Made by a program: the position numbers and the translations under genes. From Anaerolineales bacterium (GTDB lineage: Bacteria > Chloroflexota > Anaerolineae > Anaerolineales > UBA11579): 64,000 nucleotides of DNA. Below the pieces are notes generated by a model. It worked only from the letters and a program-made list of their open reading frames with translations, searched no databases and was not told where the DNA came from. The DNA lies in NCBI GenBank assembly GCA_040902205.1, contig JBBDXR010000028.1, forward strand, positions 7,390-71,389, read 5' to 3'. The first letter of the stretch is position 1. Each line of letters begins with the position of its first letter. This document shows, in pieces, positions 16,725 to 18,125 of the stretch.

Positions 16725-17465
16725 ATGTCTGAACAACAGAAGAAGTTTATTGTGTTCGAGTATGCGGATGGTGGGAATGCTAGCTATTTCATTGACAAAA
16801 TTAGAGACGAGGAAATCCTAAAGGACACACAATTTGTAGTCGAGCGAGAGCCTACATACGGGATCTTCGGCGGTGCACTTATGCCGATACTAAGGGGAGA
16901 TTTAAGATACGAGCCTCATTTTTTAGAATTGATGTTCGGCTTTTTAGCTGACAGGGCAAACCACACTTTAAGGAAATCTGAATTTTCTATAAATGGTCTG
17001 CGAAAAAATAAACATGTGATCTGCGATCGATATAACCTTGCAACGTTTGCATATCAAATTGCCAGGATAGATCCGTCAAGAGATCTTCCGATTTACAGTG
17101 GGGAAACAAAAGATGACCTCTTCAAGTGGTTTGAAGAAGTATGTAAGTATTTCCCAAAACCAGACCTAACGGTTTTTTTGAAATTCAATACTAGTACTCT
17201 CGCTGATAACATAAAAAAGGCAAATCCAACCATTCCTCCATTTACAATACTGCCCAAAAAAAATGAGGAAGAAACAGAAGATCAATATGAGGAACGAATA
17301 AAAGGCCACATTGATGAGATTACAAACAACTACCTCATGGCAATTGAATACCTAACAAAAAGGGCCGTAGGGCGTCAAAAAATTGAGGTTATTGATGTTG
17401 AGTTCCACGAGAAAGCTTGGCGAGATATGAGGCCTAAGATTTTAGAGTGCCTAAAAACTAAATAA
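16725..17465 (+). CDS. thymidylate-kinase-like protein A (degenerate P-loop)
   Basis: Tmk-like order of motifs: KFIVFE..., REP (aa 41-43), FLADRANH, VICDRY (DRY, aa 101-103), PDLTVFL. The P-loop reads FEYADGGNAS instead of GxxGxGK[ST]. Low GC. Confidence 0.7.
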   Translation: MSEQQKKFIVFEYADGGNASYFIDKIRDEEILKDTQFVVEREPTYGIFGGALMPILRGDLRYEPHFLELMFGFLADRANHTLRKSEFSINGLRKNKHVICDRYNLATFAYQIARIDPSRDLPIYSGETKDDLFKWFEEVCKYFPKPDLTVFLKFNTSTLADNIKKANPTIPPFTILPKKNEEETEDQYEERIKGHIDEITNNYLMAIEYLTKRAVGRQKIEVIDVEFHEKAWRDMRPKILECLKTK

Positions 17466-17468
17466 AAA

Positions 17469-18125
17469 ATGGCGCCAGTTGTGATGCATGGGTTTGATGT
17501 TCCTTTTATCGCAATTGAAGGAATTGATGGTTCAGGAACATCAACACAGACCCATCTTTTGACCAATGGTTTAAGAAATAAGGGTTATAAAGTATTTATT
17601 ACTCAGGCTCCTAGCGCTAGTCTTTGGGGTGGTCGCATTAGGCTTGTACTAAACAAGCAAACCCTTGTTGATCCCTTGGGTTTAGCTTTTGCATTTATGG
17701 CTGATCGAGTATCACACCTTTCAAGAGTTCAATCGGAATTGCAGGCGAGATCGGATGATTTGCTGGTGAGCGGGAGGCTGCATTTGTCTTTTTTGGCCTA
17801 TCAACATCGGCATACTAGGAAGAAAATGGAATGGTTGTCGAACTTATTAAAATGGCTGCCATTTCCCGATGTCACTTTCTTCATTGACGCAGATCCGGAC
17901 GAATGCTACGCACGAATAAAAAAGAGATCAGGCCAAGACATCTTCGAAAGCGCCTATTCTCTTCGAGCGATGAGAGACGGTTTTTTTGAAGCTATAAGCT
18001 TCATGACATCAAAAGGGCAGAAAATAATCACCGTTCCAGGAAAGGATCATGTTTTAGAAATTAGCGCACTTATATTGTCGCATGCACAGGACGAACTGGG
18101 AAGGATAGGAAGGAAGGCACAATGA
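17469..18125 (+). CDS. thymidylate-kinase-like protein B (P-loop Lys replaced by Thr; DRY and REP motifs lost)
   Basis: FIAIEGIDGSGTSTQ P-loop with ACA (Thr) at 17538-17540. FMADRVSH and PDVTFFIDADPDE are Tmk-like. QAP and GRL replace REP and DRY. It starts 3 nt after the stop of gene A. Confidence 0.7.
   Translation: MAPVVMHGFDVPFIAIEGIDGSGTSTQTHLLTNGLRNKGYKVFITQAPSASLWGGRIRLVLNKQTLVDPLGLAFAFMADRVSHLSRVQSELQARSDDLLVSGRLHLSFLAYQHRHTRKKMEWLSNLLKWLPFPDVTFFIDADPDECYARIKKRSGQDIFESAYSLRAMRDGFFEAISFMTSKGQKIITVPGKDHVLEISALILSHAQDELGRIGRKAQ

What the first reader, a model, noticed from the sequence alone, without database searches (positions are those of the whole stretch)
16725..18125. Two adjacent Tmk-like paralogues carry complementary losses of catalytic motifs
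Seen in sequence: protein A keeps REP (aa 41-43), FLADRANH and DRY (VICDRY, aa 101-103), but its P-loop position reads FEYADGGNAS, with no GxxGxGK[ST]. Protein B keeps a recognisable P-loop, EGIDGSGTST, but has Thr (ACA, 17538-17540) where the invariant Lys sits. It also has QAP and GRL in place of REP and DRY. Established knowledge: canonical thymidylate kinases are homodimers that need the P-loop Lys and the DR(Y/H) Arg. Inference: neither protein looks like a competent kinase alone. The complementary pattern suggests a heterodimer, either with one composite site or acting as a non-catalytic nucleotide sensor.
Basis: partly seen in the sequence, partly recalled or inferred. Interest (0 to 1): 0.7.

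Follow-up and report, generated by a model that had tools for sequence, protein, structure and literature searches.

The report
Tmk-like pair in membrane-linked cassette
The two odd thymidylate-kinase-like genes are real, and they form the conserved front half of a rare, horizontally acquired, undescribed four-gene cassette whose third gene encodes a membrane-anchored double dCTP-deaminase-fold protein; the "complementary loss" pattern is peculiar to this copy.

Summary
A (16725-17465) has FEYADGGNAS in place of a P-loop and keeps REP, FLADR and DRY. B (17469-18125) has GSGTST (Thr24, ACA 17538-17540), QAP and GRL. The pair is not isolated. A, B, C (18122-19486; two DCD/dUTPase-fold domains plus a C-terminal 2-TM hairpin) and D (19458-20102; unknown) form a tightly packed island of about 40% GC in 59% GC DNA. 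An exhaustive search found nine full-length C homologues. In every locus recovered, Tmk-like genes lie directly upstream of them, and two are seen wherever the contig reaches far enough. In orthologues, A's loss of the P-loop is universal. B's Lys-to-Thr change is usual. But the B orthologues keep [RK]EP and DRY, so the complementarity is not a conserved design. The same Thr/Ser P-loop also occurs in many stand-alone Tmk genes, one of them in a dut-tmk-thyA-folA operon, so it does not by itself prove inactivity. These are not pseudogenes, and a composite active site is unlikely. The best reading is a pseudokinase plus a variant-Tmk pair that binds thymidine-type nucleotides and acts with the membrane protein. 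This could be a candidate conflict system or a dTTP-homeostasis system. The cassette is absent from PADLOC and from the phage and plasmid collections, and I found no description in the literature.

The parts
16725..17465 (+). Gene A: Tmk-derived pseudokinase, 246 aa. P-loop replaced by FEYADGGNAS (16755-16784). REP (16845-16853), FLADR and DRY (17025-17033) are kept. The lid is replaced by a longer insert.
   Evidence: The FEY[ALV]DGG motif, [RK]EP, FLADRxxH and (C/G)(D/N)RY are conserved in the orthologues from L003, L006, L007, L011, L014, L097 and L098.
17469..18125 (+). Gene B: Tmk-like, 218 aa, with a Thr-type P-loop EGIDGSGTST (17517-17546; Thr24 at 17538-17540). It has two changes found only in this copy: QAP (17604-17612) and GRL (17772-17780).
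   Evidence: The 8 distinct orthologues that cover the P-loop have GxG(T/S/K)TTQ. All 8 that cover the later motifs keep [RK]EP, (S/T)DRY and the lid.
18122..19486 (+). Gene C: 454 aa. Two DCD/dUTPase-fold domains (about aa 22-150 = 18185-18571, and about aa 244-323 = 18851-19090), then a long helix and a C-terminal 2-TM hairpin (aa 377-439 = 19250-19438). The start codon overlaps B's stop (ATGA).
   Evidence: AF2 model. Foldseek top hit is the tandem-domain Dcd 2r9q, followed by Dcd, Dcd-Dut and DCD-fold dUTPases. Family alignment. TM hairpin across the family.
19458..20102 (+). Gene D: 214 aa (alternative start at 19470), predicted helical, with no detectable family. It overlaps the end of C by 29 nt.
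   Evidence: No hits in Pfam, NCBIfam, PHROGs, PADLOC or PDB. Orthologues lie after C in L003, L006 and L011, with a shorter D-like ORF in L009. The AF2 single-sequence model is unusable (pLDDT 39.7).
16662..16724 (.). A 63-nt spacer between the divergent genes deoA and A. Any promoters for both must share it.
   Evidence: The promoter scan found no strong sigma-70 match here.
15357..16661 (-). Thymidine phosphorylase (deoA), a neighbour that recurs beside the cassette. Its 5' end (about 16120-16661) shares the island's low GC3.
   Evidence: Pfam. GC3 rises from 0.27 to 0.87 along the gene. TP also lies next to the cassette in L003, L004 and L005. The two TP proteins are 66% identical.

Best explanation
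A and B are the two Tmk-derived subunits of a rare, horizontally acquired cassette, A-B-C-D.

A is a conserved pseudokinase. Its ATP-binding P-loop and lid are gone, but the residues that hold dTMP in real Tmks are kept: the [RK]EP motif, the Arg of FxADR, D-R-Y and A-Y-Q.

B belongs to a Tmk subfamily in which Thr replaces the Walker-A Lys. Its orthologues otherwise look catalytically complete. The window's copy has also lost the Asp of DRY and the Arg-Glu of REP, so here it is probably only a binding protein.

C is a membrane-anchored protein with two DCD/dUTPase-fold domains. Both lack the deaminase Glu.

Inferred mechanism. A and B, probably as a hetero-oligomer, bind a thymidine- or deoxyuridine-type nucleotide. 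In orthologues B may also phosphorylate it. Together with the dNTP-binding DCD-fold domains of C, they couple the state of the pyrimidine deoxynucleotide pool to the 2-TM hairpin of C. The most likely setting is an accessory conflict module of the abortive-infection type. D is an accessory factor of unknown role.

Shown: the gene order, the conservation of the pairing, and the motif states. Inferred: heteromer formation, the ligand, the effector role of C, and the biological purpose.
For: Cassette and composition. Four tightly spaced or overlapping genes with GC 0.37-0.43 lie in a window of GC 0.59.

Conserved linkage. Each of the 9 full-length C homologues found among 1.84 billion representative proteins has Tmk-like genes directly upstream on the same strand. 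Two are seen in every locus that reaches far enough. Single-domain DCD-2TM relatives sit next to one Tmk-like gene (L109 and L150).

Motifs. A-type proteins always lack GK[ST] and keep the dTMP-site motifs. The residue at the Lys position of system-linked B-type proteins is T, S, H, L, I or K, which argues against a need for ATP-phosphate binding.

Co-divergence. The A clade and the B clade are sisters, with the window's copy basal in both (NJ tree).

C. A DCD fold occurs twice, followed by a helix and a TM hairpin. The residue equivalent to the catalytic Glu is T, I, N or Q in all members, read from the alignment.

Accessory character. The cassette has lower GC than its flanks in the 7 related loci where the flank is long enough to compare (L003, L005, L006, L007, L010, L011, L014), but not in L009. 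Cassette proteins are 22-39% identical between the window and L003, against 66% for the adjacent TP. A Replic_Relax gene lies near the cassette in L006, an Mrr nuclease near it in L010, and STAND/KAP-like ATPases near it in L104.

Precedent. PPK3 shows that adjacent Tmk paralogues can work as a catalytic plus an inactive regulatory subunit.
Against: No ligand has been identified. Nothing links the cassette to phage defence. It has no PADLOC match. The window's flanks are housekeeping genes: topA, dprA, rimM, rpsP, degV, queA, ruvB and upp. The recurring neighbours are nucleotide-salvage genes (TP, TK, NDK), which fits a metabolic role equally well. The Thr/Ser P-loop occurs in apparently housekeeping Tmks, so B orthologues may simply be active kinases. 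The SLATT similarity of C's hairpin is weak, 17.7 bits against a cut-off of 41, and is seen in only 1 of 10 members.
Confidence: 0.45

Rival explanations
1. Metabolic module. The cassette is an accessory thymidine-nucleotide salvage or homeostasis unit. B-type proteins are active dTMP kinases whose subfamily uses Thr in the P-loop. A is their regulatory pseudo-subunit, as in PPK3. C is a membrane-tethered dUTPase-like or dTTP-binding protein. The unit works with thymidine phosphorylase, thymidine kinase and NDK.
For: TP is adjacent in the window and in L003/4/5. TK is near the cassette in L006, NDK in L003 and Gmk in L010. The low-GC tract runs into the 5' part of deoA, so TP may have been acquired with the cassette. 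Thr/Ser P-loop Tmks occur in housekeeping settings, including a dut-tmk-thyA-folA operon. dut/dcd-tmk adjacency is a normal metabolic arrangement (L016 and L068). Clade-2 C proteins keep IDPGY and GRLSLRS in both domains. The window's flanks are not a defence island.
Against: The window's B lacks the Asp of DRY and the Arg-Glu of REP. Related system-linked copies have Leu, Ile or His at the Lys position. The family is very rare and diverges fast. A coiled coil plus a 2-TM hairpin on a dUTPase-fold protein has no known metabolic rationale. The cassette has foreign GC.
Confidence: 0.25
2. Relaxed selection. The cassette family is functional elsewhere, but the window's copy is losing function. 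On this reading, B's QAP/GRL and C's degenerate motifs are early decay, not design.
For: The window's A, B and C are each the most divergent member of their family: C 21-27% against 29-43% among the other clade-1 members, B 36-38% against 44-54%, and A 34-39% against 42-51%. B alone has lost REP and DRY. C alone has YPG/PSG where the others have (D/E)PG, and it lacks the N-terminal strand region of domain 2.
Against: All four ORFs are intact, with translational coupling preserved. The family-invariant residues of A, B and C are all present. The window's pair is basal in both clades, so its divergence may reflect age and not decay.
Confidence: 0.12
3. A supplies REP and DRY, B supplies the P-loop, and together they form one working kinase site.
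For: The two genes are adjacent, co-oriented and always paired. In this copy the losses look complementary.
Against: The complementarity is absent in all 8 distinct B orthologues that cover these motifs. B's 'P-loop' still lacks the Lys. In solved Tmk dimers each active site lies within one chain, away from the interface (established knowledge). In the PPK3 precedent the inactive subunit activates its partner and does not complete a site.
Confidence: 0.04
4. A bacterial PPK3-like polyphosphate kinase made of two Tmk-like subunits.
For: The precedent is two adjacent Tmk paralogues, one of them inactive. The PPK3 homologue 2plr is among B's PDB hits.
Against: PPK3 keeps the ATP-site residues and has lost the EP/TMP-site residues. 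rPPK3 lacks the DRX Arg. Here it is the reverse. There is no ppx, CHAD or SixA context.
Confidence: 0.03

Closest known systems
Canonical bacterial dTMP kinase (Tmk; PF02223 / TIGR00041)
   Same: Same fold and family. A and B both keep the FxADR Arg, the DRY Arg and the AYQ motif.
   Different: A has no Walker-A motif and an altered lid. B has Thr for the Walker-A Lys and, in this copy, lacks the DRY Asp/Tyr and the REP Arg/Glu. The two come as a fixed pair, linked to a membrane protein.
Archaeal PPK3 (Saci_2019/Saci_2020; bioRxiv 10.1101/2024.08.28.610084)
   Same: Two adjacent Tmk-fold paralogues form a hetero-oligomer of one catalytic and one inactive regulatory subunit.
   Different: PPK3 keeps the ATP site and has lost the TMP (EP) site. 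Its substrate is polyphosphate, and its operon carries ppx, CHAD and SixA. Here the NMP site is kept, the ATP site is lost, and the partner is a DCD-fold membrane protein.
Thr/Ser-P-loop Tmk subfamily
   Same: B-type proteins share EG[LI]DG[AS]G[TS][TS]TQ, xEP, ADRxxH and DRY.
   Different: Those genes stand alone in core-gene settings. B is always paired with A and C, and the window's B has further losses.
Tandem-domain dCTP deaminase (PDB 2r9q) and DCD-fold dUTPases (8y1w, 9ln0)
   Same: C's two beta-barrel domains match these structures (sequence level).
   Different: C lacks the catalytic Glu in both domains. The window's C also lacks the (D/E)PG acidic residue. C carries a coiled coil plus a 2-TM hairpin that none of these enzymes has.
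Nucleotide-pool defence enzymes with a kinase-like domain fused to a deaminase (AvcD / defensive dCTP deaminase; recalled from memory, not tested here)
   Same: A P-loop-kinase-like module is combined with a dCTP-handling module in one unit.
   Different: Those are single proteins with a zinc-dependent cytidine-deaminase fold and no membrane anchor. Here there are separate Tmk-fold genes and a dUTPase-fold domain without the catalytic Glu.
2-TM / SLATT-type membrane effectors of nucleotide-signalling conflict systems (CBASS and others)
   Same: A C-terminal helix plus a two-TM hairpin is attached to a predicted ligand-binding domain.
   Different: The SLATT match is sub-threshold and occurs in only one member. 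No cyclase or other signal-generating enzyme is present.

Membership tests
dTMP kinase (Tmk, EC 2.7.4.9) | Walker-A P-loop GxxGxGK[ST] | tested here: not met
   A has FEYADGGNAS. B has GSGTST, with Thr24 at the Lys position.
dTMP kinase (Tmk, EC 2.7.4.9) | DR(Y/H) motif (Asp and Arg) | tested here: inconclusive
   A meets it (D101-R102-Y103). B keeps only the Arg (G102-R103-L104).
dTMP kinase (Tmk, EC 2.7.4.9) | (R/K)EP motif and the FxA(D)R Arg of the dTMP pocket | tested here: inconclusive
   A has REP and FLADR. B has QAP but keeps FMADR.
dTMP kinase (Tmk, EC 2.7.4.9) | Score above the curated equivalog cut-off (TIGR00041, 83.25 bits) | tested here: inconclusive
   B scores 95.6 bits (above). 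A scores 45.1 bits (below).
dTMP kinase (Tmk, EC 2.7.4.9) | ATP-dependent phosphorylation of dTMP | not testable with these tools
   Needs an enzyme assay.
PPK3 (Tmk-fold polyphosphate kinase) | ATP-site residues conserved, EP/TMP-site residues lost, positively charged polyP cleft | tested here: not met
   A keeps REP and the TMP-site motifs but has lost the P-loop. B orthologues keep [RK]EP. The cleft was not modelled.
PPK3 (Tmk-fold polyphosphate kinase) | Operon with ppx / CHAD / SixA | tested here: not met
   The neighbours are C, D and deoA. None of the related loci has ppx or CHAD.
dCTP deaminase (Dcd) | Catalytic Glu (E138 in E. coli) in the ...GxxxLE... strand | tested here: not met
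   The equivalent residue is I (domain 1) and Q (domain 2) in the window's C, and T or N in the other members. This was read from the alignment against the E. coli motif, which I recalled from memory.
dCTP deaminase (Dcd) | Score above the curated cut-offs (TIGR02274 92.8 bits; PF22769 27 bits) | tested here: not met
   34.6 bits and 26.4 bits. The fold match itself is strong.
SLATT 2-TM effector domain | Match to NF033634 above 41 bits | tested here: not met
   17.7 bits, E 0.0026, in 1 of 10 family members. A 2-TM hairpin is nevertheless present.
PADLOC candidate systems PDC-M51 / Vak | A specific match of the Tmk-like gene, plus the partner genes of the system | tested here: not met
   A and B hit PDC-M51B at 1.3e-6 and 2.6e-11. 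E. coli Tmk hits it better, at 4.9e-17, so the match is generic. C and D match nothing.

The most novel reading that the evidence does not exclude
The cassette is a new kind of conflict (anti-phage, abortive-infection-type) system. Inactivated pyrimidine-nucleotide enzymes serve as its sensors. A Tmk pseudokinase/variant pair reads a dNMP that is normal, phage-modified or in excess (dTMP, dUMP or hm-dUMP type). A catalytically dead double DCD-fold module reads a dNTP. Together they gate a 2-TM membrane effector. A side issue could be of independent interest: a large Tmk subfamily may work without the 'invariant' Walker-A lysine.
Probability: 0.3. Interest if true: 0.8.

Novelty: new variant of a known kind. 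Interest (0 to 1): 0.6.

Why it matters
If the cassette couples nucleotide sensing to a membrane effector, it would add a new architecture to the nucleotide-centred immune and regulatory systems of bacteria. In it, housekeeping dTTP-pathway enzymes (Tmk and Dcd/Dut) are reused as ligand sensors. It would also give a second example, independent of PPK3, of Tmk paralogues working as a pseudoenzyme/enzyme pair. Separately, Thr or Ser stands at the Walker-A lysine position in about 40% of the retrieved stand-alone Tmk genes, including one in a dTMP-synthesis operon.

Tried and rejected
Word-indexed homology searches with A, B and C found essentially only the query proteins themselves. Only the exhaustive HMMER scan with C opened the family.

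Locus scans with the C-family alignment failed because it has no stretch conserved enough.

The genome scan with the B alignment used a pattern that also allowed Lys. It was swamped by ordinary Tmk genes and did not recover the window's own genome.

C and A have no relatives in IMG/VR viral contigs, in INPHARED phages or in PLSDB plasmids.

PADLOC gave only generic Tmk-fold hits.

No terminal repeats or tRNA genes mark the island. The promoter and terminator scans did not exceed the shuffled controls.

D stayed without any family, structure or usable model.

Literature searches on Tmk with defence, SLATT, DCD and pseudokinase found no description of this cassette. The PPK3 preprint was the only relevant precedent.

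I rejected sequencing error or pseudogene status, a PPK3 identity and a composite active site, for the reasons given under the rival explanations.
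Full report
1. The observation.

The ORFs and residues are as reported. A (16725-17465, 246 aa) reads FEYADGGNAS where Tmks have the P-loop. It keeps R41-E42-P43, FLADRANH and D101-R102-Y103. B (17469-18125, 218 aa) reads EGIDGSGTST, with Thr24 (ACA, 17538-17540) at the lysine position. It has QAP for REP and G102-R103-L104 for DRY.

HMMER alignments to solved Tmks confirm each equivalence. 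Both proteins are true Tmk homologues: PF02223 gives E 4.6e-11 for A and 2.1e-29 for B. B even passes the TIGR00041 cut-off, and A does not. A and B are 25% identical.

One correction is needed. B keeps the Arg of DRY and the Pro of REP. What it has lost is Asp, Tyr, Arg and Glu.

The same proteins are on record from an NCBI contig and from a Logan re-assembly.

2. The surroundings.

The pair is the front half of a four-gene unit. A and B are separated by TAA-AAA. B and C overlap in ATGA. C and D overlap by 29 nt. The unit has GC 0.37-0.43 and GC3 0.34-0.39, in a window of GC 0.59 whose flanking genes have GC3 0.66-0.75.

C (454 aa) has two domains:
- an N-terminal DCD-like domain (PF22769 26.4 bits; PDB 8y1w E 1.5e-5);
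- a second dUTPase/DCD-like domain (8qky E 7e-3).

It also has two C-terminal hydrophobic helices, aa 377-406 and 413-439.

An AF2 model built on the family alignment (pLDDT 65.5) shows two beta-barrels, a long helix and a helical hairpin. Foldseek ranks the tandem-domain Agrobacterium Dcd 2r9q first (E 4e-11). Single-domain Dcd, Dcd-Dut and DCD-fold dUTPases follow, with target TM-scores around 0.8.

D (214 aa) matches nothing, and its single-sequence model is unusable.

The flanks are housekeeping genes: topA, dprA, rimM, rpsP, degV and deoA on the left; an AAA-TPR-BTAD regulator, a GAF-HD protein, queA, ruvB and upp on the right. No tRNA gene or terminal repeats mark the island.

3. Relatives.

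Word-indexed searches found nothing useful. An exhaustive phmmer scan of 1.84 billion cluster representatives with C gave only 24 hits at E <= 1e-3. Nine are full-length proteins of 436-469 aa with the same architecture, at 21-30% identity.

Every contig that carries one of them has Tmk-like genes immediately upstream on the same strand. There are two wherever the contig reaches far enough. A D-like ORF follows C in the P0008 contigs (L003-L005), L006, L009, L011 and the P0015 contig.

Shorter relatives exist too. They have one DCD-like domain, a coiled coil and a TM hairpin. They sit next to a single Tmk-like gene in L109 and L150. L104 has three Tmk-like genes and a DCD-like gene without a TM segment.

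The cassette has no match in PADLOC, in phage or plasmid collections, or in viral contigs.

4. Are the substitutions conserved?

Alignment of all the pairs gives a clear answer.

A-type proteins always lack GK[ST]. Clade 1 has FEY[ALV]DGG. Clade 2 has EGLDGSRAADL, EGLDGANLEHH and similar. They keep [RK]EP (L007 has GIEP), FLADRxxH, (C/G)(D/N)RY and AYQ. In clade 1 the lid is replaced by a conserved longer insert.

B-type proteins have GxG-T-TTQ in most loci, Ser in L009 and Lys in L014. All 8 distinct orthologues that cover the later motifs keep [RK]EP, (S/T)DRY and a Tmk-like lid. Only the window's B has QAP and GRL.

So A's loss of the ATP site and B's Lys-to-Thr change are family traits. 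They are not errors or decay. The 'complementary' loss of REP and DRY in B is private to this copy.

A rough NJ tree puts the clade-1 A proteins and B proteins as sister groups, with the window's copy basal in each. That indicates an old duplication followed by co-inheritance. The window's A, B and C are each the most divergent member of their family.

5. Does Thr at the lysine position mean a dead enzyme?

Not safely. Of 81 stand-alone Tmk-like genes recovered from GTDB genomes, 32 have Thr at this position. They are from Spirochaetes, Myxococcota, some Clostridia and two archaea, and their xEP, ADRxxH and DRY motifs are intact. One lies beside queA-ruvBAC in a Pleomorphochaeta isolate.

A Saccharibacteria Tmk with Ser at this position lies in a dut-tmk-thyA-folA-glyA-dCMP-deaminase cluster. 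That is hard to reconcile with inactivity.

Against this, the system-linked relatives also show His (L109), Leu (L150) and Ile (L104) at the position. This suggests that binding of ATP phosphates is dispensable within the cassettes.

I could not check whether the Thr-type genomes also carry a Lys-type tmk.

6. A composite site?

In solved Tmks the P-loop, DRY, lid and NMP pocket of a site all come from one chain, and the dimer interface is elsewhere (established knowledge). The one characterised heteromer of adjacent Tmk paralogues is Sulfolobus PPK3. It pairs a catalytic subunit with an inactive subunit that stimulates it and does not complete its site. PPK3 also differs in which site survives: its ATP site is kept and its EP/TMP site is lost. 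With the complementarity not conserved, a composite site is unlikely.

7. Most likely mechanism (inference).

All three recognisable proteins derive from enzymes that bind pyrimidine deoxynucleotides.
- A keeps a dTMP-type pocket without an ATP site.
- B is at best a variant kinase and, in this copy, probably only a binder.
- C's two DCD-fold domains lack the catalytic Glu (T, I, N or Q at that position). They resemble the dTTP- and dUTP-binding states of Dcd that are among the Foldseek hits.

I therefore read the cassette as a module that couples the state of the thymidine/deoxyuridine nucleotide pool to a membrane hairpin. The most probable setting is an accessory conflict (abortive-infection-like) system. 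The reasons are the foreign GC, the rarity, and the fast divergence relative to the neighbouring TP: 22-39% against 66% identity. Mobile-element or defence-type neighbours in L006, L010 and L104 point the same way.

The serious rival is a metabolic or homeostatic role. TP lies next to the cassette in two lineages, in different arrangements. TK lies near it in L006 and NDK in L003. The low-GC tract extends into the 5' part of deoA. The window is not a defence island.

8. Novelty.

PADLOC's PDC-M51B and VakA hits are generic, since E. coli Tmk scores better than A or B. Seven literature searches found no description of a Tmk-pair plus DCD-TM cassette.

I rate it a new variant of known kinds: pseudoenzyme/enzyme paralogue pairs, and nucleotide-sensing modules with TM effectors. 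There is a real chance that it is a new system.

Noticed in passing
window 15357-16661 (-): The thymidine phosphorylase gene is compositionally mosaic. GC3 is 0.27 in codons 1-30, 0.43 in codons 31-60, 0.50-0.63 in codons 61-180 and 0.63-0.87 after that. The low-GC island therefore seems to end inside deoA, while its right border (20103-20323) is sharp. This suggests the cassette arrived by recombination within, or together with, a TP gene.
   Followed up: partly
window 17463-17468: A and B lie in the same reading frame, separated only by TAA AAA. The orthologous pairs in L006 and L011 are also in frame, but those in L003 and L014 are not. This is probably chance. No fused A-B protein was seen.
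   Followed up: partly
L015-L094 (for example L045 5980-6600 and L016 2190-2807): A large Tmk subfamily has Thr (32 of 81 retrieved genes) or Ser at the 'invariant' Walker-A lysine position, with its other motifs intact. One of these genes lies in a dut-tmk-thyA-folA-glyA-dCMP-deaminase cluster of a Saccharibacteria MAG. No compensating basic residue stood out.
   Followed up: partly
L035 6555-7229, L043 6640-7245, L051 6483-7202, L060 6634-7251, L071 6581-7204, L078 6579-7202, L092 6599-7237: A conserved protein of about 205 aa, with an N-terminal hydrophobic segment and no Pfam match, lies immediately downstream of the Thr-type tmk in Spirochaetes and Lachnospiraceae MAGs. Pairwise identity is 34-70%.
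   Followed up: partly
L104 355-7447: A variant locus carries three consecutive Tmk-like genes, with P-loop residues I, degenerate and T. They are followed by a 200-aa DCD-like protein without a TM segment and three AAA_16/KAP/STAND-like ATPases.
   Followed up: partly
L010 1001-2515; L099 3-362; L150 2-235: The L010, L099 and L150 loci each follow the C-terminal end of a similar gene. In L010 that gene is a SpoIIIAA-like AAA/R3H ATPase. This is either conserved synteny or an additional component.
   Followed up: no
window 13668-14216 (-): Ribosomal protein S16 carries a C-terminal extension of about 110 aa, rich in Ala, Pro, Lys and Glu, with internal repeats (APAAPAA...PKSE).
   Followed up: no
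window 20324-23554 (+) and 24336-27521 (+): Two very large signalling proteins lie just downstream of the island: a 1076-aa AAA-TPR-BTAD (SARP/MalT-like) regulator and a 1061-aa protein with five GAF domains and an HD-GYP-type HD domain. L003 has an unrelated 1051-aa TPR protein in the corresponding position.
   Followed up: partly
L001 7791-8465: The closest database relative of B outside the cassette family is P0003, at 34% identity. It is a Thr-type Tmk (GSGTST, with CEP and CDRY intact) that lies between bamA/ompH/mutS and housekeeping genes in a Gram-negative contig.
   Followed up: partly
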